Assembly (NCBI GenBank): GCA_965207415.1
Contig: CBDBMD010000003.1
Coordinates: 2,401,225 to 2,465,224, forward strand
Direction: 5' to 3'
Length of the DNA: 64,000 nt
Source of the DNA: Dehalococcoidia bacterium
GTDB lineage: Bacteria; Chloroflexota; Dehalococcoidia; UBA2979
Shown here: piece by piece, positions 16,308 through 58,085 of the stretch
Layout: every line of letters starts with the position of its first letter
Position numbering within the stretch: the first letter of the stretch is position 1
The notes under the pieces: generated by a model
The model's input: the letters and a program-made list of their open reading frames with translations, nothing else
Database searches by the model: none
What the model was told of the DNA's origin: nothing
Translations under genes and position numbers: made by a program

Positions 16308-16811
16308 TCAGGACGCCCACTCGAGGACGAGGTCGTCCGCCGGCATGTTGAAATCGAGGCGCAACTCGCTCAGGAGGTCGCGGCCCAGCAGCGACGGGAC
16401 GGGCCGAGCCGAGCGCCCCAGCTCGATGTGGACGCGTACGCGCGCCAGGAGCCGTCCGCCTTCCTCGGTATCGAACACGAGCGCGGCGTCCTCACTACCG
16501 TACTCAACACGCGCGCCGGCGATCCCCGTTGCCTCAACATCGCCCTGAAACGACGCGTCTGCCGCGAGTGGGCGCCCGTCCGGTGCAAGAAGCCGTCGAC
16601 GATCGTTCCAGTGGATGATCGTGGTGTCCGCGCCCGTGTCCACGATGAACGGGACGCGCGCGTGGTCACGCCGAAGCGGGGCAGGACGATCTGCGCATCC
16701 ACGTACGGGCGTCGGGCAGCGCCCCTGAACGAGCCCCTTACGCTCGGCATCGGCTTCCTGCAGCCAGCAACCAGACGGGCTCCTCGACGCACGCCTGGTG
16801 CAGGACCGCAC
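16308..16811 (-). CDS. Retropepsin-like (clan AA) aspartic protease; start unresolved
   Basis: Contains VPFIVDTGADTT (DTGA motif) and a C-terminal LLGRDLLSELRLDF. There is no ATG near the expected start. The listed start is an in-frame GTG that overlaps the upstream ORF by 74 nt. Confidence 0.55.
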   Translation of the reverse strand: MRSCTRRASRSPSGCWLQEADAERKGLVQGRCPTPVRGCADRPAPLRRDHARVPFIVDTGADTTIIHWNDRRRLLAPDGRPLAADASFQGDVEATGIAGARVEYGSEDAALVFDTEEGGRLLARVRVHIELGRSARPVPSLLGRDLLSELRLDFNMPADDLVLEWAS

Positions 16812-17064
16812 TTCGCAGATCTTCGCCAGCCTCCTGGAGCACGTCCATGACCTCGTCCGGATCATCCCCATGAGCGACAAGCTGCTGGCGGAGAATGACC
16901 ACCCATTGATCGGGGAACTGCCGCTTCAGCTCTTCGTGATGGGTCTCAATGTATTCCTGGTTGGCTTTGAACTGACGCATGCTCTCGCGCATTGCGTCTT
17001 CCCCGCCAAACGGTTCGAGCAACTCACGCGCTTCGTCTTCGGAAAGGATCCTGGCCACGACCAC
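16738..17064 (-). CDS. Small DUF5678-like protein (hypothetical)
   Basis: GTG start, 108 aa. The core FKANQEYIETHHEELKRQFPDQWVVILRQQLVAHGDDPDEV resembles DUF5678 proteins. Local GC is lower; the line at 16921 counts 50%. Confidence 0.5.
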   Translation of the reverse strand: MVVARILSEDEARELLEPFGGEDAMRESMRQFKANQEYIETHHEELKRQFPDQWVVILRQQLVAHGDDPDEVMDVLQEAGEDLRSAVLHQACVEEPVWLLAAGSRCRA

Positions 17065-17197
17065 CCCTCGAGCTCAGACGACAGCATAGCAGCACCTTGT
17101 CAGGCAGCCTATCCAGGAGCCGCCGTCCCAAGTCGACTCCCGGCTAGAATGCGTACGCCGCACGTGATAGCGGCGGCGAGCCGCGGGAGGTACGCGC

Positions 17198-18346
17198 ATG
17201 AAGCTCGATCTGCTCTACGAGCTGTCCTGTCCGAAACCCTGGAACGAGGAGAAGGAGCGCAACGCCTACTACAACGCGCTCGAACAGATCGTGCTCGCCG
17301 ACCAGCTCGGCTTCGGCACCGTGTGGGAGGTGGAGCACCACTTCCTCTCGGAGTTCTCGCACTCCTCGGCGCCGGAGATCTTCCTCGCCTGCGTCTCGCA
17401 GCGGACCGAGCGGATCCGCATCGGGCACGGCGTGGTGCTGCTGCCCAACCCGTTCAACTACCCGATCCGCGTCGCCGAGCGGATCGCCGCCCTCGACATC
17501 ATGAGCCGCGGGCGCGTCGAGTTCGGGACGGGCCGCTCCACCTGGTACGAGCAGGCCGGCTTCAACGTCCGCCCCGACGAGACGCGCGCGATGTGGCAGG
17601 AGGCGCTGAGCATCATCCCGAAGATGTGGTCCAGCGAGCAGTTCTCGCACAAGGGCGAGCACTTCGAGATCCCCGAACGCAACGTCCTGCCCAAGCCGAT
17701 CCAGCGCCCGCACCCGCCCGTCTGGGTGGCTGGCACGCAGGACGAGTCGTTCGAGATCGCCGGCCGCCTCGGCATCGGCATGCTCGCGCTGACGATCATG
17801 GTCCCGGTCGAGGAGCTCGAGCGCCGCATCGCGATGTACCGCAAGGCCAGCGAGAACGTCGAGCCGATCACGGACGTCGTCAACGACCGCATCAACTGCC
17901 TCACGCTCGTCCACTGCGCCCGCACCACGCGCGAGGCGATCGAGAACGGCGCGCCGCAGGCGGTCGCCTGGTACCTGCGCACCGTCGCCGCCCTCTTCGC
18001 CCCGCCCGAGGGCGGCGAGATCGTCTCCGGCTTCGACTTCGCCGCGCACGGCCAGCGCAGCCTCGAGGATTCCGTCCCGCAGCTGCAGAACGAGGCGACG
18101 CGCGCCATCGACGAGTTCCACCAGGGCGAGATCGGCGTCGACGACCTCTACGACGCGCTGAACACCGACGAGATGGTGATCATCGGCGACCCGGAGCAGT
18201 GCCGGAAGAAGCTGGAGCGCTACGCCGACCTCGGCCTCAACAGCCTGATGTGCCAGGTCCAGATAGGCGACCTCTCGCACGAGGCCGTCATGCAGTCCGT
18301 CGGCCTGCTCGGCAGGGAAGTCCGACCGCTGATCGATCCGGACTGA
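17198..18346 (+). CDS. Luciferase-like (LLM) flavin/F420-dependent oxidoreductase
   Basis: 382 aa with a GGGAGG RBS. Motifs: FGTVWEVEHHF and RVEFGTGRS. Confidence 0.88.
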   Translation: MKLDLLYELSCPKPWNEEKERNAYYNALEQIVLADQLGFGTVWEVEHHFLSEFSHSSAPEIFLACVSQRTERIRIGHGVVLLPNPFNYPIRVAERIAALDIMSRGRVEFGTGRSTWYEQAGFNVRPDETRAMWQEALSIIPKMWSSEQFSHKGEHFEIPERNVLPKPIQRPHPPVWVAGTQDESFEIAGRLGIGMLALTIMVPVEELERRIAMYRKASENVEPITDVVNDRINCLTLVHCARTTREAIENGAPQAVAWYLRTVAALFAPPEGGEIVSGFDFAAHGQRSLEDSVPQLQNEATRAIDEFHQGEIGVDDLYDALNTDEMVIIGDPEQCRKKLERYADLGLNSLMCQVQIGDLSHEAVMQSVGLLGREVRPLIDPD

Positions 18347-32956: not shown

Positions 32957-34321
32957 CTATAGGCTCCGCTCGGCGAGCGCTGGTCCGTCGAGCCGATGCG
33001 ATTGCCCGGCGCGCCCGTGCGAGTCGAACTCGATGCCCTCAGCCGCGAGGACCTCAAGCGGATCTCGCGTGTCCGAATTGTCGCCCCAGTAGAATCCCCC
33101 GGAGACCCGACCATCGGCCGTCAGGACACGATAGCCCACTCGGCACGGGTTCTCCGGGCAGCGAGCTATGTGTCCGGCCACTGCCTGCGCGGAACTGCTG
33201 ATCGCTTCCGCGAGATCGCCGTAGGTAGTCCACTCGCCGGGTTCGATATGTCCCAACAACTGGTGCAAGTCCGACCAGTCCCGTGGCCGTCCCGCAGTCC
33301 CGAAGCCAGCCAGTTCCGCTAATGTCTCGCCGCTCACGGTCCTCCATACCCTCGGACCCCTGAGGACAGGTGGTCGATCGCCGGACACTTGCCCCACAAT
33401 CTCTTTCGCGAGCCCGGTTGGACTCCAATGCTGATCGTCGATCAACCAGGTGAGGGGCCGACTGCGGTGATTGCGCCACGTCGCCTGGCCGCGCTGCGGC
33501 TCCTCAGCAATCCACGCGGCTACCGCCTCACGCGCCTCGGGTGGGCGAAGACGGTCAACGTCGATCGTCAGGAGCGTGCCATCCTCAAGGACCCCGTCAT
33601 CGACGAGCTGCCCAACAGCATTCGCTTCACGACGCGTCCTGACGCGCTCGTGGGCTGCCCGCAACTCCGCCTGGCGCGGGGAGACCGTGAAGTCCTCGAC
33701 ATCCGGCACCGGCCAGATCTGCGAGACCGTCAGCACGGTCTCGCTCCCGGTGCGATATGCATTGAAGCTGACGAGCGAGACGTCCAAGCCCATCTCAGTA
33801 AGCCAGACCGCGCTCGCCGTCACCTGAGGGGGAAAGCTTGCGGCCATCAGTGCAATCCGTGGTTGCCGGAGAAGGTCAGGGTCAAGTTCCCCGCCCGCAT
33901 GCGCCTCAAGTCGCTCACGCGCCTCGTCTTCCGAGACCGGACCTCCCTCGACTCTGGTCAGGTAGGCAGCATGATGTTCGGCCAGCGTCTGCGGGGTGAA
34001 GCGGCTGGCGAATGCCGCGTACTTGACCGCCTGCATCTCCACGGTGTCCGGAGCGGGGCCGCGCTTCAGTTCCGCGACCACGAGCCGACCGTCGTCGTCC
34101 AGGCCCAGGAGATCGAGGCGATCGGCTGCACGCCCGTCGCGCGCGCGCCACGCGCCGAACTCGAAGGTCACGATGCGTACGGCTTCGCCGAGGATCTCCG
34201 GATTCTCGCGCACCCATTCCTGCAGATCGGCGCGCTCGCGGAAGCCCGCCTCCGCGAGGCTGATCTCCGTTGCGGGCGTGGCGGCCCCAGGCTTAACCGT
34301 GAACACCAACTCGCCGGGCAT
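32957..34321 (-). CDS. Fusion protein: NucS/DUF91-like PD-(D/E)xK nuclease + DUF4357-like region + Cys-less MGMT/ATL-like domain
   Basis: 454 aa. N-terminus: DRLDLLGLDDDGRLVVAELKRG. Middle: QHWSPTGLAKEIVG...GPRVWRT. C-terminus: TTYGDLAEAI...VGYRVLTADGRVSGGFYWG...VLAAEGIEF. GC is lower than in the neighbours; the line at 33361 counts 62%. Confidence 0.6.
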   Translation of the reverse strand: MPGELVFTVKPGAATPATEISLAEAGFRERADLQEWVRENPEILGEAVRIVTFEFGAWRARDGRAADRLDLLGLDDDGRLVVAELKRGPAPDTVEMQAVKYAAFASRFTPQTLAEHHAAYLTRVEGGPVSEDEARERLEAHAGGELDPDLLRQPRIALMAASFPPQVTASAVWLTEMGLDVSLVSFNAYRTGSETVLTVSQIWPVPDVEDFTVSPRQAELRAAHERVRTRREANAVGQLVDDGVLEDGTLLTIDVDRLRPPEAREAVAAWIAEEPQRGQATWRNHRSRPLTWLIDDQHWSPTGLAKEIVGQVSGDRPPVLRGPRVWRTVSGETLAELAGFGTAGRPRDWSDLHQLLGHIEPGEWTTYGDLAEAISSSAQAVAGHIARCPENPCRVGYRVLTADGRVSGGFYWGDNSDTRDPLEVLAAEGIEFDSHGRAGQSHRLDGPALAERSL

Positions 34322-40354: not shown

Positions 40355-40597
40355 ATGGTGACCAGGCACGTCCGCGCCAGATACTCGAACGGCGTCCTCG
40401 AACCCCTCGAGGCGATCGACCTCGATGAGGGGGCGGAGGTGTCCCTGTCCATCAAGGAGGCGCCCTCGCCGAAGCACGACCCGGAGGCGATGAGGGCCGG
40501 TGCCGGCGGCTGGGTCGGCCAGCATGATCCCGAGGAGCTCAAGCGAAGGATCTACGAGGCTCGCATCACAGGTTCGCGGGAACCGCCAACTCTCTAA
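40355..40597 (+). CDS. Antitoxin, DUF104/AF2212-like
   Basis: MVTRHVRARYSNGVLEPLEAIDLDEGAEVSLSI. It ends 13 nt before the PIN gene. Confidence 0.6.
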   Translation: MVTRHVRARYSNGVLEPLEAIDLDEGAEVSLSIKEAPSPKHDPEAMRAGAGGWVGQHDPEELKRRIYEARITGSREPPTL

Positions 40598-40610
40598 CGC
40601 TGTGCAGCAC

Positions 40611-40994
40611 ATGGTCGACACTGACTGGGTCATCGAGTACATGCACCGGGTGCCGCATGTCGTGGATCGTGTTGCAGAGTTGACCCCGGCCGGAATCGGC
40701 CTGAGCGTCATCTCGCTCGCTGAGCTCTACGAGGGCGTGCAGGGGGATGTGGACCCGCAGCGCAGCGAACGCGAGTTGGACGCCTTTCTTGAGCGCGTGT
40801 ATCTGCTAGATGTTGATGAGGGGACCTGCCGGATCTTCGGCAGAGAGCGCGCCCGCCTGAGAGCGGATGGCAGCCTGATCGGAGACATGGACCTGCTGAT
40901 CGGCGCGACCGCGTTGCGGCACGGGCTCACCCTGCTCACCAACAACCGACGTCATTTTGACCGGATCGAGGGGCTGGCGATCGAGTCGGTCTGA
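40611..40994 (+). CDS. vapC: PIN-domain toxin VapC
   Basis: 127 aa. Acidic PIN residues are present in MVDTDWVIEY, SLAELYEG, GDMDLLIGATAL and LLTNNRRHFDRI. Confidence 0.8.
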   Translation: MVDTDWVIEYMHRVPHVVDRVAELTPAGIGLSVISLAELYEGVQGDVDPQRSERELDAFLERVYLLDVDEGTCRIFGRERARLRADGSLIGDMDLLIGATALRHGLTLLTNNRRHFDRIEGLAIESV

Positions 40995-41015
40995 GGCCGG
41001 GCGTGCGCCAGGCCG

Positions 41016-42611: not shown

Positions 42612-44498
42612 ATGACCGCATCAGACACGGCAGCCCGGTACGAGGAAACGTCGGGCGCGGAGGAGAGCGGCGGCCTCATGCTGCGCCATCGCGCGAGCCG
42701 GCGCGCCGTGATGCGCGGAGCGCTGCTCGGGGGCGCCGGCCTCACCGCCGCGGCGCTCGTCGGCTGCGGCGACGACGACGATGACGACGACGGCGCCGCT
42801 CCGGCAGCGACGGCTGCCCCCACGACTGCCCCGACGGCTGCGGCGACGGCGACCGCTGCACCGACGGAGGCGCCGCTCTCCGAGGCGGCACAGGGCGTTC
42901 GCGCGCTGAACGCACAGGCCGAGAAGGACGGCGCGCCGTTCCCCTACGACTTCGAGGAGCCGGACAAGCCCCCGAAGGCCGGCGGCGTGCTCAAGATGGC
43001 CTACCGTTTCGACATCGGCAGTTGGGACCAGGGCAAGGTCGGCGTCGTCGGCACGACGCTCTACAACCAGGCCGCGTACAACCGGCTGGTCGGGTTCAGG
43101 CACGGCCCCGGCGTCTCGAAGTTCCTCAATGAGATCGAGCCCGAACTGGCGCAGACCTGGGAACTTTCGGGCGACGGCCTGACCTACACCTTCAACATCG
43201 CCCCTGGGATCAAGTATCCGAACGTAGCGCCGGTGAACGGGCGCGACTTCACCTCCGCAGACATCAAGTTCGTCTACGAGCGCCACGGCCAGGAGGAGAC
43301 CAGCGTCCATAAGCAGTACTTCTCGCTGGTCTCAGCGATCGAGACGCCGAATGACAACACGCTGGTGGTCCGGCTCACGGAGCCGAGCCCGGACTTTCTT
43401 GTCGGGCTCGCCCTGCGCTGGAACGTGATCTACCCGCGGGAGCCGGTGGACGACGGCACGATCGACACCCAGCTGGCGGTCGGCACCGGCCCACTGATCA
43501 CCACGGAGGCCGTGCCGAGCAGCCACGTCAAGATGGAATCCAACCCGGACTACTGGGAGGGCAAGCCCCTGCTCGACGGCTTCGAGGTACAGATCATGCC
43601 GGACGAGCAGGCGCAGCTGGCGGCGTTCCGCGCCGGGCAGGTGGACCTGGCCGCAATGCCGACCGATCTGGAGACGCTGCGGAGCGTCCACGAGGAGACC
43701 AACAACCAGCAGGTGAACGACCCGATTCTGATGGCCTCGAACTCCGTCGGCTTCCAGTTGAAGAATCCGAAGTTCGCCGATGTTCGCGTACGGCGGGCGC
43801 TCGGACTCGCGCTGAGGCGGGATCAGTTCATTGACATCCTCTTTGGAGGCTACGCGCTCTACGTTCCCGTCACGGCCTGGCCGTTCGTGCTGGACGCGAT
43901 CCCGGACAACAAGGAGTTCGGGGCCTACTGGCACTACGACGCCGACGAGGCGAAGAAGCTGCTCTCGGCCGCCGGCCAGGAAGACCTCGAGTTCCCGCTG
44001 CTCGCCAGCGACAGGCTGCTGAGAGGCATCGGCACCCGCGAGATGGAGATTCTCCAGCAGCAGTGGGCGGAAGTCGGCGTATCGATGGAGCTGCAGGTGG
44101 TCGACTACTCCGAGTACAACCGGCAGTGGTGGGGAAACAACTTCGAGGAGGTCGCTTCCGGCACCGCAACGGTCGCGCCGACCGCGGACGGATTCTTCTT
44201 CGACCAGGTGCACCCCTCGGTCGTGACGAATCGCTGGGGAATCGACGACCCGGAGATCACGGACTGGGCGGAGCGGCAGAAGGTGGAGCTCGACGCGGAC
44301 GCACGCAAGGAGTTGCACACGCGGATCTTCAATAAGGTGCTCGACGAGGTCTACCGGATCGAGCGCATCTCCCCGTTCCCCAACAACACGCAGCAGAACT
44401 GGGTGCGGAACTTCCGGTTCAGCTACCCCTTCATCAGCCACCACTGGGTGTACGAGTGGGGCGACCAGTTCCACACCGGCTGGCTCGACAGGGACTAG
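42612..44498 (+). CDS. ABC transporter substrate-binding lipoprotein, family 5 (peptide/nickel/opine type), Tat-type signal
   Basis: ATG 42612 after GGGAGGGGG. Signal and lipobox SRRAVMRGALLGGAGLTAAALVGC, then a poly-Asp and Ala/Thr/Pro linker, then an SBP_bac_5-like body. Confidence 0.9.
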   Translation: MTASDTAARYEETSGAEESGGLMLRHRASRRAVMRGALLGGAGLTAAALVGCGDDDDDDDGAAPAATAAPTTAPTAAATATAAPTEAPLSEAAQGVRALNAQAEKDGAPFPYDFEEPDKPPKAGGVLKMAYRFDIGSWDQGKVGVVGTTLYNQAAYNRLVGFRHGPGVSKFLNEIEPELAQTWELSGDGLTYTFNIAPGIKYPNVAPVNGRDFTSADIKFVYERHGQEETSVHKQYFSLVSAIETPNDNTLVVRLTEPSPDFLVGLALRWNVIYPREPVDDGTIDTQLAVGTGPLITTEAVPSSHVKMESNPDYWEGKPLLDGFEVQIMPDEQAQLAAFRAGQVDLAAMPTDLETLRSVHEETNNQQVNDPILMASNSVGFQLKNPKFADVRVRRALGLALRRDQFIDILFGGYALYVPVTAWPFVLDAIPDNKEFGAYWHYDADEAKKLLSAAGQEDLEFPLLASDRLLRGIGTREMEILQQQWAEVGVSMELQVVDYSEYNRQWWGNNFEEVASGTATVAPTADGFFFDQVHPSVVTNRWGIDDPEITDWAERQKVELDADARKELHTRIFNKVLDEVYRIERISPFPNNTQQNWVRNFRFSYPFISHHWVYEWGDQFHTGWLDRD

Positions 44499-44597
44499 GG
44501 CGGCGCCGATACTGCCGCCCACGACGCGGCGGCGGGAGGCGTGCCTCCGCCCTGAGCGCGGACGCCGCCTCCCGCCACCCGGAGCTGCCGGGATTGC

Positions 44598-47989: not shown

Positions 47990-48065
47990 TGGCGCGCCGG
48001 GAAGGATTCGAACCCTCGACCATCAGATCCGAAGTCTGACGCTCTGTCCCCTGAGCTACCGGCGC
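47990..48065 (-). tRNA. tRNA-Arg, anticodon UCG, CCA encoded
   Basis: The reverse complement folds as GCGCCGG TA GCTC AGGGGACA GAGC G TCAGA CTTCGGA TCTGA TGGTC GAGGG TTCGAAT CCTTC CCGGCGC G CCA. All four stems pair, and the total is 76 nt. Confidence 0.93.
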
Positions 48066-48149: not shown

Positions 48150-48557
48150 ATGCAAGTCACGAGGATCTACACCGGCGACGACGGGCAGTCGCACTTCGAG
48201 GACATCGAGGTCGGCACCGGCGCGGGGGACACGCAGCGTTCCCCGGACTTCCCCGCGACCGCCGTCGGGCTCCGCGAGTCCGACGGCGCACGCAACCTGG
48301 ACTTCCACCCCGCGCCGCGCCGACAGCTGGTGGCCATCCTCGCGGGGCGGCTGGAGATCGAGATCGGCGACGGCACGAAGCGAGAGTTCGGGCCGGGCGA
48401 GCTGTTCCTCGCCGACGACACGAGCGGACAGGGCCACATCCTGCGCGACATCGGCGGCCCACACCGCGGCGTCGTCGTCCCGCTTGCGCCGGAGTTCGAC
48501 CTCGAGGCGTTCCGGGGCGGCCAGGTTGGCGGGGCGGCCAGGTCGCCCTCGCCCTAG
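48150..48557 (+). CDS. Small cupin-like protein (paralog of 19245-19631)
   Basis: 135 aa starting MQVTRIYTGDDGQSHFEDIEV. The stop shares a CTAG with the convergent gene. Confidence 0.7.
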   Translation: MQVTRIYTGDDGQSHFEDIEVGTGAGDTQRSPDFPATAVGLRESDGARNLDFHPAPRRQLVAILAGRLEIEIGDGTKREFGPGELFLADDTSGQGHILRDIGGPHRGVVVPLAPEFDLEAFRGGQVGGAARSPSP

Positions 48558-50290
48558 GACGTTCTCTCGACCAGCACCGTGATGATGTCGACCCCGTAGT
48601 ACTTCTGATGGCGGACCGACGATGCCTGATGGCGAAGCAGGCGCAACGAGATCTCGTTGGCTTCCGGCAACCTGATCTCTTCGTTCAGGTAGGCCAGCTG
48701 GTCCTCCAGGTTCTCGTGGATCGTCGAGGCGACGAACTCCAGCTCCACCGAGGCTCCGCCGGGACGCGCACTGATCACCAGGCGTGGCGTGCGCTCGGCA
48801 GCCTCCGCCTCGTCCCACTGCAGGAGGCTGAGCAGCGTCTCCTCGCCGGCGGCCCGCAGCCGTAGCGTGGAGAGCGCATCCCAGTCGAGTTCCTCCGCGA
48901 TCTCGCCGAGGAACTCGTCGACGGCGGGCAGCTCCGCCAGATCGAGTTCAGTCTCCAGGCGGCGGGCTCGCGGGCCCGTGGACTCGAGGAACAGGGTCAG
49001 CCCGACGGCGACGATCGCGCCGTACATGACCCCGCTGCTGAAGACAGTGCCCAGCGTGTCCCCCAGCACGAACGCGATCACCTCGTGCCTGTCGAGGCCC
49101 AGGCCGATCGCCAGCGAGAGTCCCACGATCAGGGACTTCTGCGGGTCGAGGCCATCCCGCAGTACGGTCTGCATGCCGCTCACGAGAATGATGCCGAGGG
49201 CCATCAGCAGGTAGGCGCCCATGACGGGGCTGGGGATCGTCAGCAGAACCGCACCAAACTTGGGGAACAGCGCGACTGCCAGGAAGATCAGCGCGACCGC
49301 GTATCCGACCCGGCGCGAGGCGATTCCCGTCAGGCTGATCAGCGACGTGCTGAACGAGGCAAGGCTCTGGACCGGCGGAGTGCCGGCGATTCCGGCCAGC
49401 AGCATCCCCACGCCGTTCGTGCTGACCATTGCCTGGATGTGCCGGAAATCGATCGCGCGCGCCTCACGCTGCGAGACCCGCTCGATGATTGCGCCGTCGC
49501 TGACGACCTTCGTGCCGAGGACGAGCGTGAGCACGAGGAACGTCGGCAGTAGCGCCCAGAACTCGACGCCGGGCGTGAGATCCACGCCGGGGAAGCGGGC
49601 CTCGGGGAAGCCCAGCCAGGGCGCGTCGACCACCCGTTGCAGCTCGTACTGGCCGAGCGCCGCGGCCACTACGCAGCCGGCTGCGATGCTGATCAGGGTG
49701 GACCAGAGTCGCCACGTGGCCGACGCACGCAGCGCGAGCACGACTCCCACGGCAAGCGTGGCCAGCCCGACGGCCGGGCCGGCAGTCGCCGGGGCTCCGG
49801 CAGGCAGCTCATTCAGCCGGTCGACCGCCACGGGCAGCAGCGAGGCCGCCACCAGCATCAGGACCGTGCCGGTGACGACGGGCGTGAGCAGGCGCCGCAG
49901 CGCCGGCAGCCACAGCGCCATCGCGAACTGCGCGAGCGAGCTGACGACCATGAGGCTCGCCAGTGTCGCCGGACCGCCCTCCGATAGCGCCACGACGCTG
50001 ATCGCCACGAACTGGACGGTGGGCGCGGCAATCACGATGTGCCCGGACCCCAGGTACCGCGCGCGAGTCGCGTGCAACCCGATGATCACGGCGTTGACGA
50101 TCAGGGCCGCGAAGACGGCCCAGTTCAGGTACGCGTCGTCCTGCCCGGCCGCTCGCACGGTGACGGCCACAACGAGAATCGTCGGGGCCAGGGCGAGCGC
50201 GACGCCTTGCAATCCGACACCGGCGGCGACGAGGGGCGAGCAGCCCTCGTCGGGCTCGTACCGAAGCTCCTCGATGTTCTGAGCCGCCAT
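48554..50290 (-). CDS. Multi-pass permease (nucleobase/NCS2-like) with soluble C-terminal domain
   Basis: ATG 50290 after GGAGCG, with an alternative ATG at 50308. About 440 aa of hydrophobic helices are followed by a roughly 130-aa soluble tail. The family assignment is tentative. Confidence 0.65.
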   Translation of the reverse strand: MAAQNIEELRYEPDEGCSPLVAAGVGLQGVALALAPTILVVAVTVRAAGQDDAYLNWAVFAALIVNAVIIGLHATRARYLGSGHIVIAAPTVQFVAISVVALSEGGPATLASLMVVSSLAQFAMALWLPALRRLLTPVVTGTVLMLVAASLLPVAVDRLNELPAGAPATAGPAVGLATLAVGVVLALRASATWRLWSTLISIAAGCVVAAALGQYELQRVVDAPWLGFPEARFPGVDLTPGVEFWALLPTFLVLTLVLGTKVVSDGAIIERVSQREARAIDFRHIQAMVSTNGVGMLLAGIAGTPPVQSLASFSTSLISLTGIASRRVGYAVALIFLAVALFPKFGAVLLTIPSPVMGAYLLMALGIILVSGMQTVLRDGLDPQKSLIVGLSLAIGLGLDRHEVIAFVLGDTLGTVFSSGVMYGAIVAVGLTLFLESTGPRARRLETELDLAELPAVDEFLGEIAEELDWDALSTLRLRAAGEETLLSLLQWDEAEAAERTPRLVISARPGGASVELEFVASTIHENLEDQLAYLNEEIRLPEANEISLRLLRHQASSVRHQKYYGVDIITVLVERTS

Positions 50291-50792
50291 CGTGCGCGCT
50301 CCTGCCATCGGCCCGTCTGACGAACCAGTGAATTGCGGAGGATATCGGGAAATGAGTGCCAGCTGGACCTCGCGCGGCACGTATCCGCCCGCCTCCCGCT
50401 GGCTAGCATAGCGGCGAATAGTCGGTCGGCATGAAGATGACGGAGCGGATGCGTGTGACGACGCTGCTGCTAGGAGCTGCGAGAGGATTCGAGGTTCCAC
50501 GAGTCCCAGATCCTCAAGGCGGCGATGCGGCTCCCGGATCACTCCCGGGAACGGGCCGAGGTCGGGCACGCGATGATCGGTGCGGCGCGTTTCTTGGCGG
50601 CGTACTCGCCGGCGGCGCGTTCGGCAGAGTAGACCTACGACACGGCCTACCGCCTGCATCGCGGGGACATGACCTCCGAATAGGTGCCGCCGTAACGGTG
50701 TAAGCAAGTGATCATACGCGCGCGCTCCGGTTGCAGATCCTGTGCCCATCGTTCAAGATTGGCTTGTGGCGGGCTCTCCCCGAAGGGCCGCA

Positions 50793-52364
50793 ATGGGAAA
50801 GCTGACGCTGGTCACCGGGGTTCCAGGTACTCGAATCCAGAGGTCGCTCACGAGCTTCGTCGCCTTCGCGTCGACGAACTTTGGGCGCAGTGTCGTAGTG
50901 CACTCGCTCGAGGCCGATTTTCAGGCCCGAGCTCGGCCGCAAGTCGCTGAATTCCACCCCGAAGTCGGTGCAAGTCCGACTGTCATACACACGTTCCTTC
51001 TGCCTGGCCCACTTATAAGAGACCTTTGGCGAGAAGCGTTCGAATCCGTGACGCAACGCGCCGAGGAGAGTCGGCTGACTGGTGACGTAATCGTAACCCT
51101 ACACTTGTCGTTCTTCCTCCATTCGACACGCGAGTACTTTTTTCCTGCGGATCTGTCGGTAATGATTGGATGGATCAAACAGAATGTAGACGAGATCGTG
51201 ACATTTGTTGATGATATCTACGATGTGCATCATTCGCTCATTGGCGGAACCGATGACGTCGGTATGTTGGATCCGCCGTCGACACTCGAGTCAACGGTTC
51301 ATGATTTGATGCAGATTCTGGACTGGCGTTCAATCGAAGGGATGTTGGCATCCAGCTTGTCAGCATCGGCGGAAAAGCCACATTATCAGTTCGCCGTGAA
51401 GCACCCGGCAGGAACTTTCCACGATCTCATCTACACGGATAAGCAGGTTGTATATCTCTCACATCCGATCTCAGAACCACGGCGGCTTTTTTCAGCAGGC
51501 GAGAGAAGCGAAACAGTCGAGTTCGTCCGCAACATGCAAAACCATGTCTCTCGGCTCCGCAGCTCCGCGACGGTCATCGAACCGACGGCAATAGACGAAT
51601 GGAGGTTTGCTGGTGGTAGCGCAAACCTCTCAGCTCGATGGCCGTTCGGTCCCGACGAGAGAGAGCTGCTGTACGTACCGCCTGACCCTCCTCCACCGGC
51701 AGCACTGCGCTTCGTGTTTCCTGCGGGATGGGCCGCGGACGAGCGAGAAGCGCTCGAAGCGAGCGATGCGGTCACGCTTCTACAGAAGGCGATCGAGCGG
51801 CAGATCAATGCCCGCGATCACAGTCTAGTCGAGGAGACGGACCGCATCGCTTGTTATCGTCCACTTTTTCGTGGGAATGCGTCGCGCGGAGTTGAAGAAG
51901 AACTCCGTCACTTCGCTGGACTCGTGAAGCTAGGGATGCGAACTGGCCAGACGTCGGTCGTCCTTATGCGGGACGAGGATCGGAAGGCTTTCGCACAACG
52001 GACGGTGATTGAGAGGCTGCTGCCAGGTTGGCGTAAGAACGGCCTGCTCCAAGGGCAAGACACCAACTTCAATAAGTTCATCCAGTGTGTCGAGGCGGGG
52101 GATTCACGTTCGGAGGCCGTAGCGCGAGGAGAGCTCGATACACTGCGGAGCCTCCTCCGAGAGTGCGAACTCTCCGCGAACCCTGACTCGATACCTGGTG
52201 GGGGCACCCTCGGAGCGACCGAGGCGACTCGGCGCCAGACCGCTGAAGGGGATCTCGCGCTCCAAATCCAGAGCGCTGTTGCGGCGTTCGATAGACTCGC
52301 CCAAGGCGATGAAGTGAAGATTGTCTCTGACGAACAGGCGTTCTATAATGCGTTCGAAGCATAG
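50793..52364 (+). CDS. Hypothetical 523-aa protein: degenerate P-loop (archaeal AdkA-like) domain + NDT/SLOG-like Rossmannoid domain + helical tail
   Basis: ATG 50793 lies 5 nt after GAAGGG, with an alternative GTG at 50742. Motifs: MGKLTLVTGVPGTRIQ, DEIVTFVDDIYDV, KQVVYLSHPISEP and RDHSLVEETDRIACYRPLFRGNASRGVEEELRHF. GC in sampled lines is 40-58%. Confidence 0.6.
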   Translation: MGKLTLVTGVPGTRIQRSLTSFVAFASTNFGRSVVVHSLEADFQARARPQVAEFHPEVGASPTVIHTFLLPGPLIRDLWREAFESVTQRAEESRLTGDVIVTLHLSFFLHSTREYFFPADLSVMIGWIKQNVDEIVTFVDDIYDVHHSLIGGTDDVGMLDPPSTLESTVHDLMQILDWRSIEGMLASSLSASAEKPHYQFAVKHPAGTFHDLIYTDKQVVYLSHPISEPRRLFSAGERSETVEFVRNMQNHVSRLRSSATVIEPTAIDEWRFAGGSANLSARWPFGPDERELLYVPPDPPPPAALRFVFPAGWAADEREALEASDAVTLLQKAIERQINARDHSLVEETDRIACYRPLFRGNASRGVEEELRHFAGLVKLGMRTGQTSVVLMRDEDRKAFAQRTVIERLLPGWRKNGLLQGQDTNFNKFIQCVEAGDSRSEAVARGELDTLRSLLRECELSANPDSIPGGGTLGATEATRRQTAEGDLALQIQSAVAAFDRLAQGDEVKIVSDEQAFYNAFEA

Positions 52365-52377
52365 GAAGGGACACAGG

Positions 52378-52593
52378 ATGCACGACAGGACTACGCAGTT
52401 TACCCTTTTTGTTTCGGACCTGGAGGAGGCGCGGGCGCTCAGAGAGACGATCGAGTCGGCAGGGTACGAGCCCTACGTGGTGGTGTGTGCCCAAGATCGG
52501 GATACTCCGTATCTCTGTAGCGCTCTTGTGAAGATCACGGGCCACAGCAACATCAGGCGGTTCCTAGCCTCTGGGGCCCCAGCGCCGGGCTAG
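52378..52593 (+). CDS. Hypothetical 71-aa protein, partner of the 523-aa ORF
   Basis: ATG 52378 after AGGAAGGG, 13 nt downstream of the large ORF's stop. Sequence MHDRTTQFTLFVSDLEEARALRETIESAGYEPYVVVCAQDRD... I recognise no family. Confidence 0.5.
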   Translation: MHDRTTQFTLFVSDLEEARALRETIESAGYEPYVVVCAQDRDTPYLCSALVKITGHSNIRRFLASGAPAPG

Positions 52594-52603
52594 CTGTACC
52601 TGC

Positions 52604-52930
52604 CTACGGCAGTGGCGAGTAGTCCGTCGGCGCAAGGATGTCCGAGCGAATGCGAGTCACGATCGCGCCGTCGCGCTCCGAATCGGCGCGGACCTGCCGC
52701 CACTCCTCGTCGGCCCGGAACGCGGCCCACTTGCGGTCGCGCTCGGCCATGTCCTCGAACTTCATCAGGTAGACGAGCTGGTCGCTCCAGCCGCCGTGGG
52801 CGTAGGTCCAGAAGCCAACCACGTCCAGGCCGTGATTCGCGAAGATGCGCAGCGTGTGGTCGCGGAAGCGGCGATGGAGCGCGCCAAGCTTGCCCGGAGC
52901 CGCCTCGTAGATTCGCAGTTCGTAGATCAT
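52604..52930 (-). CDS. NIPSNAP family protein (copy 1)
   Basis: 108 aa starting MIYELRIYEAAPGKL, with a GGAAGGAG RBS. Confidence 0.85.
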   Translation of the reverse strand: MIYELRIYEAAPGKLGALHRRFRDHTLRIFANHGLDVVGFWTYAHGGWSDQLVYLMKFEDMAERDRKWAAFRADEEWRQVRADSERDGAIVTRIRSDILAPTDYSPLP

Positions 52931-52955
52931 CGCTGCTCCTTCCGTGAGCGCGCCG

Positions 52956-53282
52956 CTAGGGCAGCGGCGAGTAGTCCGTCGGCGCGAGGATGTCCGAGCG
53001 GATGCGCGTGGTGAGCGAGCCCTCGCTGTGCGACTCGGCGAGCACACGTCGCCACTCGTCGTCGGCCATGAAGCTGGCCCACTTGCGGTCGCGATCGGCC
53101 ATGTCGTCGAACTTCATGAGGTAGACGAGCTGGTTGCTCCAGCCGCCGTGGGCGTAGGTCCAGAAGCCGACCACGTCGAGGCCGTGACGCGCGAAGATGC
53201 GCAGTGTGTGGTCGCGGAAGCGCGCGTTGAGCGCGGGCAGCTTTCCCGGAGCCGCCTCGTAGGTGCGCAGTTCGTAGATCAT
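52956..53282 (-). CDS. NIPSNAP family protein (copy 2)
   Basis: 108 aa starting MIYELRTYEAAPGKL. A tandem paralog of copy 1 at a 352-bp offset. Confidence 0.85.
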   Translation of the reverse strand: MIYELRTYEAAPGKLPALNARFRDHTLRIFARHGLDVVGFWTYAHGGWSNQLVYLMKFDDMADRDRKWASFMADDEWRRVLAESHSEGSLTTRIRSDILAPTDYSPLP

Positions 53283-54255: not shown

Positions 54256-54387
54256 GATCGTCGTGGCTCCAATCGGCGCCGACGCCGACGATACGCGCTC
54301 CCGAGGCGGGCGACGAGACGCCGCCTGGACGCCGCGACCGCGCGGCTCGCGGCCTGCTACCCTCGCCTCGCAACGAAGGAGGTTGCC

Positions 54388-56969: not shown

Positions 56970-57755
56970 ATGACACGCGAGGGCACTCGGGACAGCACTA
57001 CGCCTCAAGGAGGCGGCATTGACCCCGCTATGGCGGTGCTGGTGGCAGTGGTTGCGGCCATCCTCCTTTACCTGTGGGCCTTGCTCGCGTTAGGCGCGGG
57101 TCTCATATTCAAGACCGTCGTTCGTGAGCACGACGGACCAGTCGAGTTGGTGTTGATTCCGCCGGCAGTGCTCGCCGGCGTCATCCTCCGACCCCGCCTC
57201 AGCCGGTTCATTGCACTCCAGAGGAGCAAGTGGCGCCCAATCGTACCGCTTGTCGTGGCGTGCGCATTGGTGGCTCTCGCCGTGTATCTCGGGTGGACCT
57301 CGGCGGGGCCGGCGGGGCTGCTCTCAGTTGAGCGGATCGTTGGGGGATTGCTGACCGCGGCCGTTGCACTCACCGCGACTGCTCTCCATCCACGGCTCAT
57401 GGCTGCCTTGGCCGGGGCGATAGCCGCGCCCGCCCTCTTTGGGCTTGTGGCCTTCCTCGTCCCAGACACACTGATCACAGCCATTGGGGCAGATGCCTTC
57501 GAGAGGAGCACCGGCCGGAGTCTCGGCATCTGGACCAATTGGTCCCACACGGAGCTGGGCGAAACGTTCTGGGGAGCGCCGCTCTACCATCTCATGCGGT
57601 GGGCAGGATATTGGGGCCCCGTCACGCTCCTCGGCACCTGGTTCTTGTTGCGCAGGCATGCTCTCAGCCATGCGTGCTGGGCCGGCGCCATCGCACTATT
57701 CCTCGGCACGGGTCAGTTCTACTTGCAGATGGTGGGAGAGGGGTTCGGTCGCTGA
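56970..57755 (+). CDS. Hypothetical multi-pass membrane protein
   Basis: 261 aa with at least six hydrophobic segments and no recognisable motif. GC is visibly lower than in the flanks. Confidence 0.55.
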   Translation: MTREGTRDSTTPQGGGIDPAMAVLVAVVAAILLYLWALLALGAGLIFKTVVREHDGPVELVLIPPAVLAGVILRPRLSRFIALQRSKWRPIVPLVVACALVALAVYLGWTSAGPAGLLSVERIVGGLLTAAVALTATALHPRLMAALAGAIAAPALFGLVAFLVPDTLITAIGADAFERSTGRSLGIWTNWSHTELGETFWGAPLYHLMRWAGYWGPVTLLGTWFLLRRHALSHACWAGAIALFLGTGQFYLQMVGEGFGR

Positions 57756-58085
57756 CCACGGAGCAGGAGAGGGCGTCCTGCCTGCGCGCAGGCACCTGGT
57801 CCAGAACGGCGTCGCGGCCCGCGTCTCGATGAACTGACGGAGCTTCGGGGTACTACCAGCGCTACGTAGACGTTGCTTCGCATCTCGGATCGACAGCGAA
57901 GAAGGTGGGGCTGCCCACATTGGGCGTGCGGTTCCCGGCGCGCTACCTGAGACCTAGCCTGCTCAATCTCAGAAGGCTACGCCGCGATTTCCCTACCCGG
58001 CCCGCCCGCCGGGCCACGTTGCGCCAACGGGGCCTGCTGCGCCATCGGCGCTCTCGGGGGCTCGACGATGGGTGGGCGTGCCTGG

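What the first reader, a model, noticed from the sequence alone, without database searches (positions are those of the whole stretch)
50700..52600. Low-GC two-gene cassette: degenerate P-loop kinase + NDT/SLOG-like fusion protein with a 71-aa partner (best candidate for an undescribed system)
Seen: this is the sharpest compositional break in the window. Hand counts of five 60-nt lines inside it give 40, 47, 57, 58 and 58% G+C; a flanking line at 54361 gives 73%. The segment holds exactly two same-strand ORFs 13 nt apart, each with a GAAGGG-type RBS. They are a 523-aa protein (ATG 50793) and a 71-aa protein (ATG 52378). They are wedged between a permease gene and a NIPSNAP gene that run the other way. 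No integrase, transposase or flanking repeat is visible.

Motifs read by eye in the large protein fall into three parts:
- The N-terminal ~190 aa is laid out like an archaeal-type adenylate or NMP kinase (MGKLTLVTGVPGT, VIVTLHLSFF, DEIVTFVDDIYDV, LDWRSIE). However, the Walker-A GK[ST] is replaced by TRIQ.
- The central ~200 aa resembles nucleoside 2-deoxyribosyltransferase/LOG (SLOG) Rossmannoid domains (KQVVYLSHPISEP ... INARDHSLVEETDRIACYRPLFRGNASRGVEEELRHF).
- The last ~100 aa looks helical.

Inference: this is a nucleotide-sensing or N-glycosidase-type effector with a small modulator or antitoxin. That would make it a horizontally acquired conflict, defence or TA-like module that I cannot assign to any named system.
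Basis: partly seen in the sequence, partly recalled or inferred. Interest (0 to 1): 0.85.

Follow-up and report, generated by a model that had tools for sequence, protein, structure and literature searches.

The report
Mobile N-glycosidase gene pair, glutaredoxin-like partner
A 1.9-kb block of foreign DNA carries two genes that always travel together across at least ten bacterial phyla: a three-domain enzyme predicted to cut bases off (deoxy)nucleotides, and a small glutaredoxin-like protein without its redox cysteines. It looks like an undescribed toxin-antidote or anti-phage module, but its function has not been tested.

Summary
Window 50727-52593 has 57.6% G+C against 71.0% elsewhere (z about -6.6). 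Its genes have GC3 of 0.61 and 0.74, against 0.81-0.97 for host genes. It is the only DNA shared with the closest relative's chromosome, where it sits between unrelated genes.

The 523-aa protein has three parts:
- an archaeal-adenylate-kinase-like domain with no Walker-A lysine (0 of 173 relatives have one);
- a DNPH1/nucleoside-2-deoxyribosyltransferase-like domain whose catalytic Asp and Glu, and a presumed Tyr, are invariant in 173 of 173;
- a variable helical tail.

The 71-aa ORF is a real gene (dN/dS 0.07-0.17). It belongs to a fast-evolving family with a probable glutaredoxin fold and no CxxC. Partner-model hits occur only next to the big gene: 78 adjacent hits and none elsewhere among about 14,600 ORFs. 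Loci that truly lack a partner, bar one, have a broken big gene. The two genes co-diverge (Mantel r = 0.77).

Pfam, NCBIfam, PADLOC, PHROGs and the literature searches do not describe this pair. It is absent from sequenced plasmids, phages and viral contigs.

The best reading is a mobile nucleotide-N-glycosidase toxin/effector with a protein antidote. The enzyme activity, toxicity and defence role are inferred. SLOG similarity is not supported.

The parts
50727..52593 (+). Horizontally acquired two-gene cassette (the mobile unit)
   Evidence: It is the only DNA shared with the Tepidiformaceae chromosome L003 (79.6% over 1867 nt, unrelated flanks). GC is 0.576 against 0.710. The left edge of homology is at about 50727.
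50727..50792 (+). Conserved 5' leader of the cassette, with RBS GAAGGG at 50782-50787; presumed to hold the promoter
   Evidence: Conserved between the window, L003 and L029, while the sequence further upstream is unrelated. No strong sigma-70 match was found here.
50793..52364 (+). Gene A: 523-aa three-domain protein (adenylate-kinase-like, NDT/DNPH1-like, helical)
   Evidence: ORF. AF2 model pLDDT 94, pTM 0.90. 1589 family clusters. dN/dS 0.105-0.122.
50793..51437 (+). Gene A, aa 1 to about 215: archaeal-adenylate-kinase-like P-loop-fold domain with a degenerate Walker A (GVPGTRIQ); invariant D140, D141, W178, K203
   Evidence: PDB profile hit to 6ln3 at E = 0.001. Foldseek hits to 6pjw, 6ln3, 1kht and 1nks at E 5e-7 to 2e-5, TM 0.65-0.74. 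None of 173 members has a Walker A Lys.
51438..51968 (+). Gene A, aa about 216-392: NDT/DNPH1-like N-glycosidase domain with an insert of about 60 aa; invariant D342 and E370 (and Y221, presumed catalytic), near-invariant R341, R356, S364
   Evidence: Foldseek on the domain model: DNPH1, three NDTs and YtoQ on top (probability 0.75-0.98). hhalign maps D342 to D80, S364 to S98 and E370 to E104. Conservation.
51969..52361 (+). Gene A, aa about 393-523: variable, mostly helical C-terminal domain (absent or shorter in some Planctomycetota members)
   Evidence: Secondary structure. Sub-threshold DUF7085 hit only. Short variants L018 and L019 (429 and 455 aa) still have partners.
52321..52349 (+). 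Sigma-70-like promoter match (TTGTCT-17 nt-TATAAT) inside the 3' end of gene A, upstream of gene B; a possible separate promoter for the partner
   Evidence: 10 of 12 matches; 0.5 sites expected per region. Conserved in L003, L028 and L029, including synonymous positions, but it overlaps conserved F-Y-N codons.
52378..52593 (+). Gene B: 71-aa partner, probably glutaredoxin/thioredoxin-fold without CxxC; RBS GGAAGGG at 52364-52370
   Evidence: An HMM trained on partners from other phyla ranks it first of 761 window ORFs (E = 3e-4). dN/dS 0.07-0.17. Glutaredoxin hits: 4tr1 at E = 8e-4 and 7c12 at E = 0.01.
50409..50471 (-). Remnant of a NIPSNAP gene 3' end (21 codons, SSSVVTRIRSVIFMPTDYSPL), marking the insertion site in a tandem NIPSNAP array
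   Evidence: tblastn of NIPSNAP against 50200-50900 gives E = 4e-7. The 56-nt direct repeat is 50402-50457 / 52603-52658 / 52955-53010.
52604..53282 (-). Two intact tandem NIPSNAP genes (52604-52930 and 52956-53282): host genes bordering the cassette, not part of the system
   Evidence: PF07978, E about 1e-24 each. 81% identical to each other. GC3 0.89-0.93.

Best explanation
Window 50727-52593 is a self-contained, horizontally mobile two-gene module. It belongs to a large, unnamed family of gene pairs.

Gene A is predicted to be an N-glycosidase. Its central domain is a DNPH1/nucleoside-2-deoxyribosyltransferase-type domain with an intact Asp/Glu catalytic motif and a presumed catalytic Tyr. 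I expect it to cleave the base from a phosphorylated nucleotide, probably a 2'-deoxy one. The N-terminal domain is derived from an archaeal-type adenylate kinase but has lost the P-loop Lys/Thr and the Walker-B Asp. It keeps its own invariant cluster of residues, so it most likely acts as a nucleotide-binding regulatory, sensor or oligomerisation module rather than as a kinase.

Gene B is a small glutaredoxin-fold protein without redox cysteines. It is an obligate partner, probably translated in step with A and possibly also from its own promoter. I propose that B binds A and keeps it inactive. When B is lost, titrated or displaced, for example during phage infection or after loss of the element, A depletes (deoxy)nucleotides and stops DNA replication. 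That would make the pair a toxin-antidote or abortive-infection-type module.

Shown: foreign origin and mobility, the domain folds, conservation of the catalytic residues, obligate pairing, co-divergence, and purifying selection on both genes.

Inferred: the enzyme activity and substrate, toxicity of A, neutralisation by B, and any role in phage defence.
For: Foreign and mobile:
- GC z = -6.7 and GC3 0.61/0.74 against 0.81 or more.
- Only 50727-52593 is shared with the closest relative, whose flanks differ. A third related genome has the pair beside IS elements.
- Gene GC is below flank GC in about 20 of 23 loci across about 10 phyla.
- Neighbours recur only as integrases, transposases, a TrwB-like ATPase and ArdC.

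Folds and catalytic residues:
- Adenylate-kinase-like domain. NDT/DNPH1-like domain.
- DNPH1 D80, S98 and E104 align to D342, S364 and E370.
- Y221, D342 and E370 are invariant in 173 of 173 members. No member has a Walker A.

Obligate pair:
- 26 + 52 partner-HMM hits are all within 200 nt of gene A. None lies elsewhere in 7108 + 7545 ORFs.
- In the independent set, loci truly lacking a partner have a disrupted gene A.
- Mantel r = 0.766, with 0 of 2000 permutations reaching it.
- Start/stop overlaps or gaps of a few nt are common.
- dN/dS is 0.07-0.17.

Precedent: NDT-superfamily domains serve as defence effectors in type VIII Thoeris ThsI (bioRxiv 10.64898/2025.12.03.692087) and in retron Ec86 (bioRxiv 10.1101/2023.08.16.553469).
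Against: - There are no functional data of any kind.
- No PADLOC hit.
- The neighbourhood is not clearly a defence island. Many loci sit among housekeeping genes, and only a few neighbours hit defence models.
- The pair is absent from sequenced plasmids, phages and IMG/VR contigs.
- The partner has no DNA-binding domain typical of type II antitoxins. It could equally be an activating or structural subunit.
- The fold evidence for the central domain (E 0.04-0.15) and for the partner (E 8e-4 to 0.01) is weak in E-value terms.
- The Y221 to Tyr24 mapping is by topology only.
- One intact gene A (L009) has no visible partner.
Confidence: 0.5

Rival explanations
1. An accessory nucleotide-pool 'sanitising' or salvage enzyme. 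Like mammalian DNPH1, which removes 5-hydroxymethyl-dUMP, gene A would hydrolyse non-canonical or surplus (d)NMPs. Gene B would be a structural or activating subunit. No toxicity or conflict role would be involved.
For: The catalytic motif is DNPH1-like. Many loci lie among housekeeping genes. In the window the neighbour is a nucleobase permease. The pair is absent from phages and plasmids.
Against: The pair is extremely patchy: 23 loci found among 185,579 species representatives, a pattern-limited scan. Its composition is foreign and it sits at different loci even in close relatives. No metabolic gene is a conserved neighbour. Mobile-element genes recur next to it. Broken gene A copies keep their partner, while partner-less loci have a broken gene A.
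Confidence: 0.2
2. An obligate heteromeric enzyme or sensor-effector defence system in which B is not an antidote. Instead B is the trigger-sensing or activating subunit, for example one that recognises a phage protein through the glutaredoxin peptide-binding groove.
For: The obligate pairing and co-divergence fit this as well as they fit an antidote. The partner evolves fast, with mean pairwise identity 0.21 against 0.27 for gene A. It has no DNA-binding domain.
Against: The pattern 'broken gene A keeps B, and no intact gene A lacks B' is more typical of a toxin-antidote pair. A possible separate promoter for B also fits an antidote. Neither point is decisive.
Confidence: 0.17
3. A bifunctional salvage or biosynthetic enzyme with an active kinase plus a (deoxy)ribosyltransferase or CMP-hydrolase, as in MilB/BlsM-type nucleoside-antibiotic pathways.
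For: Kinase-like and NDT-like folds are joined in one chain.
Against: No member has a Walker A Lys or Ser/Thr (0 of 173), and the Walker-B Asp is replaced. No biosynthetic-cluster neighbours are conserved.
Confidence: 0.05
4. Not a real feature: the GC dip is ordinary gene-to-gene variation and the 71-aa ORF is spurious.
For: None found.
Against: z = -6.7. Homology with the relative is limited exactly to the cassette. The partner is found next to gene A in over 90% of loci with enough flank, and nowhere else. dN/dS is 0.07-0.17.
Confidence: 0.01

Closest known systems
DNPH1/Rcl (2'-deoxynucleoside 5'-phosphate N-hydrolase) and the wider nucleoside 2-deoxyribosyltransferase superfamily (NDT, MilB/BlsM CMP hydrolases, YtoQ)
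   Same: These are the best structural matches of the central domain. The motif '(Q/R)D...D...S-x-G-V-x-x-E' aligns with D80, S98 and E104 of human DNPH1. A Tyr on strand 1 and the Asp and Glu are invariant. The phosphate-binding Ser is mostly kept, which suggests a nucleotide rather than a nucleoside substrate.
   Different: No Pfam NDT-clan model reaches threshold; one member hits DUF1937 at E = 0.046. There is an insert of about 60 aa with its own invariant residues (P264, D268, E269, R271, R282, W283). The domain is fused to two other domains and is always paired with a small partner gene. It is mobile and sporadic rather than housekeeping.
Archaeal-type adenylate kinase (AdkA; PDB 6ln3, 6pjw, 1kht, 1ki9, 1nks)
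   Same: The N-terminal roughly 200 aa have the same fold (TM 0.65-0.74 on the target). Sequence similarity is detectable around the P-loop and the next two elements. The His of the 'DTH' motif is kept (H104).
   Different: The P-loop Lys is V, I or L in all members and the Thr is lost. The Walker-B-type Asp is hydrophobic. New invariant residues appear (D140, D141, W178, R179, K203, H204). The domain occurs in bacteria as part of a larger protein. It is therefore unlikely to be a kinase.
Defence effectors with NDT-superfamily domains: type VIII Thoeris ThsI (CMP-hydrolase + TPR) and the retron Ec86/Eco1 NDT-like effector
   Same: An NDT-superfamily N-glycosidase domain used as the presumed killing or depleting module of a mobile multi-gene system. 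One family member even carries a TPR-like N-terminal extension.
   Different: No TIR protein, reverse transcriptase or ncRNA lies nearby. No PADLOC hit. The accessory domains and the partner are different.
ShosTA and similar toxin-antitoxin defence modules with nucleotide-metabolism toxins (for example AvcID)
   Same: A two-gene, mobile module in which the large protein is a nucleotide-metabolising enzyme and the second component is a dedicated neutraliser (abstracts seen). This is the logic proposed here.
   Different: The protein families are unrelated: ShosT is a phosphoribosyltransferase/pyrophosphatase and AvcD a deaminase with an RNA antitoxin. Toxicity and neutralisation are untested here.
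Glutaredoxin / NrdH (thioredoxin fold)
   Same: The partner profile aligns over its whole length with glutaredoxins, including the cis-Pro strand and the Gly of the GG motif. Grx, NrdH, Spx and the GST N-domain dominate the weak PDB hits.
   Different: The CxxC/CPYC site is replaced by an acidic 'D-(D/x)-S-x-(E/x)-S'-type segment. Helix 2 appears to be missing, since there is a gap of about 13 aa against Grx. No Pfam glutaredoxin hit. It cannot be a thiol-disulfide oxidoreductase.

Membership tests
Archaeal-type adenylate kinase / P-loop NMP kinases | P-loop NMP-kinase fold of the AdkA type | tested here: met
   Foldseek top 15 hits are all archaeal adenylate kinases (E 5e-7 to 2e-5, TM on target 0.56-0.74, mostly 0.64 or above). 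Profile vs PDB: 6ln3 at E = 0.001.
Archaeal-type adenylate kinase / P-loop NMP kinases | Walker A GxxGxGK[ST] with the catalytic Lys | tested here: not met
   The window has GVPGTRIQ. None of 173 members has a canonical Walker A, and the Lys position is V, I or L.
Archaeal-type adenylate kinase / P-loop NMP kinases | Acidic residue of the 'D-T-H' element after strand 3 | tested here: not met
   HMMER alignment to 6ln3: 'IIDTHA' aligns with 'iltlHl'. The Asp is replaced and the His (H104) is kept in 167 of 173.
Archaeal-type adenylate kinase / P-loop NMP kinases | Passes a curated family model (Pfam or NCBIfam) | tested here: not met
   No kinase family hit at E up to 1.
Nucleoside 2-deoxyribosyltransferase superfamily (NDT / DNPH1 / MilB) | NDT-type Rossmannoid fold | tested here: met
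   Domain model pLDDT 85.7. The top meaningful Foldseek hits are DNPH1, the T. brucei, Chroococcidiopsis and Leishmania NDTs, and YtoQ (probability 0.75-0.98, TM up to 0.51). E-values are weak at 0.04-0.15.
Nucleoside 2-deoxyribosyltransferase superfamily (NDT / DNPH1 / MilB) | Catalytic Glu nucleophile in the G-V-x-x-E element, and the Asp at the start of the preceding helix | tested here: met
   hhalign maps E370 to E104 and D342 to D80 of human DNPH1 (sequence identity verified). Both are 173 of 173. The pairwise E-value is only 0.066.
Nucleoside 2-deoxyribosyltransferase superfamily (NDT / DNPH1 / MilB) | Tyr on strand 1 that hydrogen-bonds the Glu (linked to 2'-deoxy specificity; PMC11204291) | tested here: inconclusive
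   An invariant Y221 sits on the first strand of the domain ('VVYLSHPIS' against 'ALYFCGSIRGG'). Profile alignment could not place strand 1.
Nucleoside 2-deoxyribosyltransferase superfamily (NDT / DNPH1 / MilB) | Passes a curated Pfam model of the clan | tested here: not met
   No hit for the window protein. One of 47 members hits DUF1937 at E = 0.046.
Nucleoside 2-deoxyribosyltransferase superfamily (NDT / DNPH1 / MilB) | N-glycosidic bond cleavage or transfer activity | not testable with these tools
   Needs biochemistry.
SLOG / LOG | SLOG fold or LOG-type motif | tested here: not met
   No LOG or SLOG structure appears among the listed top-50 domain hits. ThsA reached only probability 0.23 with rmsd 22 A in the whole-chain search. 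No Pfam hit.
Glutaredoxin / NrdH (partner) | Thioredoxin/glutaredoxin fold | tested here: inconclusive
   Profile vs PDB: Grx3 4tr1 at E = 8e-4 with the 18-sequence profile and Grx 7c12 at E = 0.01 with the 60-sequence profile. Many Grx, NrdH, Spx and GST N-domain proteins appear among the weak hits.
Glutaredoxin / NrdH (partner) | CxxC (CPYC) redox motif | tested here: not met
   The aligned position holds D/S/E residues, and no Cys pair is conserved.
Toxin-antitoxin modules (protein antidote) | Tightly linked two-gene operon with a small cognate partner that co-occurs with the large gene | tested here: met
   All 78 partner hits are adjacent to gene A and none lies elsewhere. Gaps range from -16 to +84 nt. 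Co-divergence r = 0.77.
Toxin-antitoxin modules (protein antidote) | An intact toxin gene is not found without the antidote | tested here: met
   After manual inspection, the metagenome loci without a partner have a fragmented or frameshifted gene A. The one exception in the genome set is L009, with limited flank.
Toxin-antitoxin modules (protein antidote) | Toxicity of the large protein and neutralisation by the small one | not testable with these tools
   Needs expression experiments.
Named anti-phage defence systems (PADLOC-DB v2.0; Thoeris VIII; retron Ec86) | Match to a system model, or presence of the system's signature partner (TIR protein; reverse transcriptase plus ncRNA) | tested here: not met
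   No PADLOC hit for either protein. No TIR or reverse transcriptase appears among recurring neighbours. No Rfam hit.
Named anti-phage defence systems (PADLOC-DB v2.0; Thoeris VIII; retron Ec86) | Enrichment next to known defence genes | tested here: inconclusive
   Of 134 neighbour ORFs from 19 loci, only a few hit defence models: a type II R-M pair, PD-T4-6, HerA, GajB and a PNP effector in L006. No background rate was computed.

The most novel reading that the evidence does not exclude
This would be a new family of nucleotide-depleting immune or addiction modules. A dead adenylate-kinase domain senses a nucleotide signal, for example phage-made or modified dNMPs. That switches on a DNPH1-like domain which strips bases from deoxynucleotides. 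A redox-dead glutaredoxin-fold protein is the antidote or trigger sensor. It would be the first glutaredoxin-fold antitoxin and the first stand-alone dNMP/dNTP N-glycosidase defence. The family is widespread in uncultivated phyla and absent from model organisms.
Probability: 0.3. Interest if true: 0.8.

Novelty: new variant of a known kind. Interest (0 to 1): 0.62.

Why it matters
If the proposed function holds, the pair adds a new way to attack the nucleotide pool, by removing bases from (deoxy)nucleotides. The known routes are dNTP deamination, dNTP triphosphohydrolysis and NAD/ATP cleavage. It would also add a new type of protein antidote, a glutaredoxin fold without cysteines, and an example of an adenylate kinase turned into a pseudo-kinase regulatory domain.

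The family is large (about 1,600 clusters at 50% identity) but invisible to current annotation and defence-finding tools. It lives almost entirely in uncultivated lineages: Chloroflexota, Planctomycetota, Acidobacteriota, Armatimonadota, Dormiibacterota and others. It therefore marks a blind spot of screens based on model organisms.

The residues to mutate are already defined (E370, D342, Y221; D140/D141, K203/H204). That makes the hypothesis directly testable.

Tried and rejected
- Single-sequence searches for gene A against Pfam, NCBIfam, PADLOC, PHROGs and PDB gave nothing usable: only sub-threshold DUF7085 at E = 0.013.
- The central-domain sequence profile against PDB gave nothing. Only the fold comparison of a separately modelled domain worked.
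- The whole-chain Foldseek search was swamped by the kinase-like domain. The viral library gave only generic P-loop kinases.
- BLAST clustering of neighbours missed the partner because it evolves too fast. It was found by eye and then confirmed with HMMs.
- hhalign in global or relaxed mode could not place strand 1 / Tyr24.
- The larger 60-sequence partner profile did not improve the glutaredoxin E-value.
- SLOG/LOG: rejected, with no supporting hit.
- Integron cassette: rejected. Only 10 nt separate the stop of gene B from the NIPSNAP stop, leaving no room for an attC.
- MADS association of the recurring large ATPase neighbour: rejected as unconvincing, since it is a partial mad8/HerA-type ATPase match only.
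- Plasmid, phage or IMG/VR carriage: none found.
- Six literature searches found no description of this architecture.
- Rfam: no RNA element in or next to the cassette.


Full report

Yes. The + strand holds an ORF from ATG 50793 to stop 52364 (523 aa). Thirteen nucleotides later there is an ORF from ATG 52378 to stop 52593 (71 aa). Each is preceded by a GAAGGG-type Shine-Dalgarno sequence, at 50782-50787 and 52364-52370.

The composition break is the strongest in the window. For 500-nt windows outside the cassette the mean GC is 0.711 (sd 0.030), and the minimum inside is 0.506 (z = -6.7). With 1800-nt windows z = -6.5. The effect is concentrated at third codon positions. GC3 is 0.61 for the big gene and 0.74 for the small one. 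The five neighbouring genes checked have 0.89-0.97. All 49 likely genes of the window have 0.81 or more, median 0.94.

The flanking genes are a xanthine/uracil-family permease (PF00860) and two tandem NIPSNAP genes (PF07978), all on the other strand.

A 56-nt segment at 50402-50457 is repeated at 52603-52658 and 52955-53010. These are 3' ends of NIPSNAP genes. A 21-codon NIPSNAP C-terminal remnant lies at about 50409-50471 on the minus strand. The cassette therefore sits inside what was a tandem NIPSNAP array.

**2. The cassette is a discrete mobile unit.**

The closest relative found is a complete Tepidiformaceae chromosome (locus L003; protein 83% identical). It shares DNA with the window only over 50727-52593, at 79.6% over 1867 nt. 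That span runs from 66 nt upstream of the first ATG to the stop of the small ORF. Nothing in the 8 kb on either side is homologous.

A third related genome carries the pair next to IS transposases and a PIN toxin-antitoxin pair.

In about 20 of 23 loci from species-representative genomes, the gene has lower GC than its flanks. Those genomes span Chloroflexota, Gemmatimonadota, Armatimonadota, Desulfobacterota, Bacteroidota, Dormiibacterota, Actinomycetota, Planctomycetota, Acidobacteriota and Zixiibacteriota.

**3. The large protein.**

Single-sequence searches found no family in Pfam, NCBIfam, PADLOC or PHROGs, and nothing in PDB. The family is nevertheless large. There were 54 word-index hits. 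A profile search returned 1589 clusters at E up to 1e-3 among 1.84 billion representatives, 818 of them at E up to 1e-30. Every hit for which a source gives a name is called 'hypothetical protein'.

An AlphaFold2 model built on 47 homologs is very confident (pLDDT 94, pTM 0.90).

(a) Residues 1 to about 215. The family profile hits archaeal adenylate kinases by sequence (6ln3, E = 0.001). The model matches them by fold (6pjw, 6ln3, 7owe, 1kht, 1nks; E 5e-7 to 2e-5, TM 0.65-0.74 on the target). However, the P-loop Lys position is V, I or L, and none of 173 diverse members has a canonical Walker A. The Asp of the 'DTH' element is also replaced. The domain does have its own invariant set: D140, D141, W178 and K203 in 173 of 173, R179 in 172 and H204 in 171. 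I read it as a pseudo-kinase that still binds something, not as a kinase. That reading is an inference.

(b) Residues about 216-392. A sequence profile of this domain found nothing in PDB. A separate model of the domain (pLDDT 85.7) puts nucleoside 2-deoxyribosyltransferase superfamily members on top. These are human DNPH1, the T. brucei, Chroococcidiopsis and Leishmania NDTs, and YtoQ. Probabilities are 0.75-0.98 and TM reaches 0.51, but E-values are only 0.04-0.15. Generic flavodoxin-like proteins score probabilities near 0.2.

At residue level, a profile alignment to human DNPH1 aligns R341-D342 with Q79-D80, S364 with the phosphate-binding S98, G366-V367 with G100-V101, and E370 with the nucleophile E104. 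I wrote the DNPH1 sequence from memory and verified it against PDB. D342 and E370 are invariant in 173 of 173 members, as is Y221 on the first strand. Y221 probably corresponds to DNPH1 Tyr24, but that rests on topology alone because the alignment could not place that strand.

According to PMC11204291, a Tyr hydrogen-bonded to the catalytic Glu goes with 2'-deoxy specificity in NDT and DNPH1. Together with the retained phosphate-binding Ser, this suggests a 2'-deoxynucleotide substrate. That is an inference.

The domain carries an insert of about 60 residues with further invariant residues (P264, D268, E269, R271, R282, W283). Nothing supports a SLOG or LOG relationship.

(c) Residues about 393-523 are mostly helical and variable. 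They are missing or shorter in some Planctomycetota members that still have the partner.

**4. The small protein is a conserved, obligate partner.**

A single-sequence search found only two close homologs, and BLAST clustering of neighbours missed it. By eye, however, nearly every locus has an adjacent ORF of 65-90 aa with the same pattern. Four tests followed.

- Leave-out test. An HMM trained only on partners from other phyla ranks the window ORF first among 761 window ORFs (E = 3e-4; next best 0.96).
- First locus set. In 30 loci plus the window, all 26 hits at E below 1e-4 lie within 84 nt of the big gene. None lies elsewhere in 7108 ORFs. These include loci not used for training, and one ORF that gene callers had missed.
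- Independent set. In 80 metagenome loci, all 52 hits are adjacent and none lies elsewhere in 7545 ORFs. Of these, 44 are downstream on the same strand, 6 upstream and 2 convergent.
- Loci with no HMM hit. Seven loci had enough flank but no hit. Five of them have divergent partner-like ORFs on inspection. The other two have a fragmented or frameshifted big gene.

Conversely, truncated or frameshifted big genes keep an intact partner. The only intact big gene without a visible partner is L009, where just 294 nt of upstream sequence are available.

The two genes co-diverge (Mantel r = 0.766 over 56 non-redundant loci, with 0 of 2000 permutations reaching it). Both are under purifying selection: dN/dS is 0.105-0.122 for the big gene and 0.070-0.170 for the small one.

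The partner profile aligns end to end with glutaredoxins (4tr1, E = 8e-4; 7c12, E = 0.01). Many Grx, NrdH, Spx and GST N-domain proteins appear among the weak hits. The conserved acidic D-x-S-x-E-S segment lies where the CPYC motif would be. The cis-Pro and the Gly of the GG motif are the only nearly invariant positions. A cysteine-less glutaredoxin-like fold is therefore probable, not proven.

**5. Context.**

No third gene is conserved. The only neighbours that recur are tyrosine recombinases (6 loci) and a TrwB/DUF87-type ATPase of about 1000 aa (5 loci). Individual loci show ArdC, DDE and IS110 transposases, resolvases and a PIN toxin-antitoxin pair.

A few neighbours hit defence models: a type II restriction-modification pair, PD-T4-6, HerA, GajB, and a PNP-type effector right after the pair in L006. 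Many loci, however, lie among housekeeping genes. I computed no background rate, so defence-island enrichment is unproven.

The pair was not found in 72,556 plasmids, 50,697 phage genomes or IMG/VR viral contigs. No Rfam family matches in or near the cassette.

The only strong sigma-70-like match in the region is TTGTCT-17 nt-TATAAT at 52321-52349. It lies inside the 3' end of the big gene, just upstream of the partner's RBS. It is conserved in three relatives, but it overlaps conserved codons. It could be a separate promoter for the partner.

**6. How it most likely works.**

What is shown is a foreign, mobile, self-contained pair. It comprises a large protein with an intact NDT/DNPH1-type catalytic centre, a degenerate kinase-like domain, and an obligate, fast-evolving small partner.

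What is inferred is the following. The large protein removes bases from (deoxy)nucleotides. The kinase-like domain binds a nucleotide as regulator or sensor, or drives oligomerisation; archaeal adenylate kinases are trimers and NDTs are dimers or hexamers, from my own knowledge. The partner holds the enzyme in check until it is lost or displaced.

This is the logic of toxin-antidote and abortive-infection modules built on nucleotide metabolism. ShosTA and AvcID are examples. NDT-superfamily effectors are already known in type VIII Thoeris (ThsI) and retron Ec86. I give this reading about 0.5.

The main rivals are a non-toxic nucleotide-sanitising enzyme with a structural subunit (0.2) and a sensor-effector system in which the partner activates rather than inhibits (0.17).

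**7. Novelty.**

Six full-text searches found no description of this architecture. The effector type is known. The pseudo-kinase fusion, the cysteine-less glutaredoxin-like partner and the family itself appear to be undescribed. I rate it a new variant of a known kind.

Interest is moderate to high. The pairing evidence is unusually clean and the hypothesis is directly testable, but function remains entirely inferred.

Noticed in passing
window 52604-53282 (-) and 50409-50471 (-): Two intact tandem NIPSNAP paralogs (81% identical), plus a 21-codon remnant of a third copy on the far side of the cassette. The cassette seems to have replaced most of one copy of a tandem array.
   Followed up: partly
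window 47990-48065 (-): tRNA-Arg (anticodon TCG), the only tRNA in the window. It lies 2.7 kb upstream of the cassette, beyond the permease gene. No link to the insertion was seen.
   Followed up: no
window 48554-50284 (-): The gene divergent from the cassette is a xanthine/uracil-family nucleobase permease. That is a suggestive neighbour for a base-releasing enzyme, but the neighbourhood is not conserved in any other locus, so it is probably coincidence. The mechanical ORF extends to 50749, but the real start is likely near 50284.
   Followed up: partly
window 16501-17500, 33001-34000, 40501-41000, 43001-44500, 57001-58000: Milder GC dips (0.63-0.65 against about 0.71) elsewhere in the window. 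None comes near the cassette's 0.51, and none was examined.
   Followed up: no
L002:1455-6613, L011:498-5078, L030 (=L015):2639-7881, L039: A recurring module lies next to the pair in several phyla. It has a TrwB/DUF87-type ATPase of about 1000 aa (partial mad8/HerA-like hit), proteins of about 212-244 aa and about 470-510 aa, and often tyrosine recombinases. It may be a mobile element backbone or another unnamed system.
   Followed up: partly
L006:9727-11400 (+): Directly downstream of the pair in a Desulfobacterales MAG is a 558-aa protein that matches the PADLOC PNP-type 'Effector' model (E = 5e-28) and PDC-M60C. This is a defence-type neighbour.
   Followed up: partly
L023:7472-8708 (+): In a Zixiibacteriota MAG the big gene is split into two overlapping ORFs (218 + 198 aa). 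Its N-terminal part reads 'GPTGVDKK', a P-loop that still has lysines. It may be a less degenerate or ancestral form, or a frameshift.
   Followed up: no
protein P0063 (703 aa), residues 1-178: One family member has an N-terminal extension that looks like TPR repeats. This recalls the TPR + CMP-hydrolase architecture of Thoeris ThsI.
   Followed up: no
L028:8001-9317 and L029:2177-3749; L020/L104; L055: Several copies of the big gene are truncated (next to an IS), frameshifted or fragmented. The truncated and frameshifted copies in L028 and L029 keep an intact partner. The partner-less loci are the ones with a broken big gene.
   Followed up: yes
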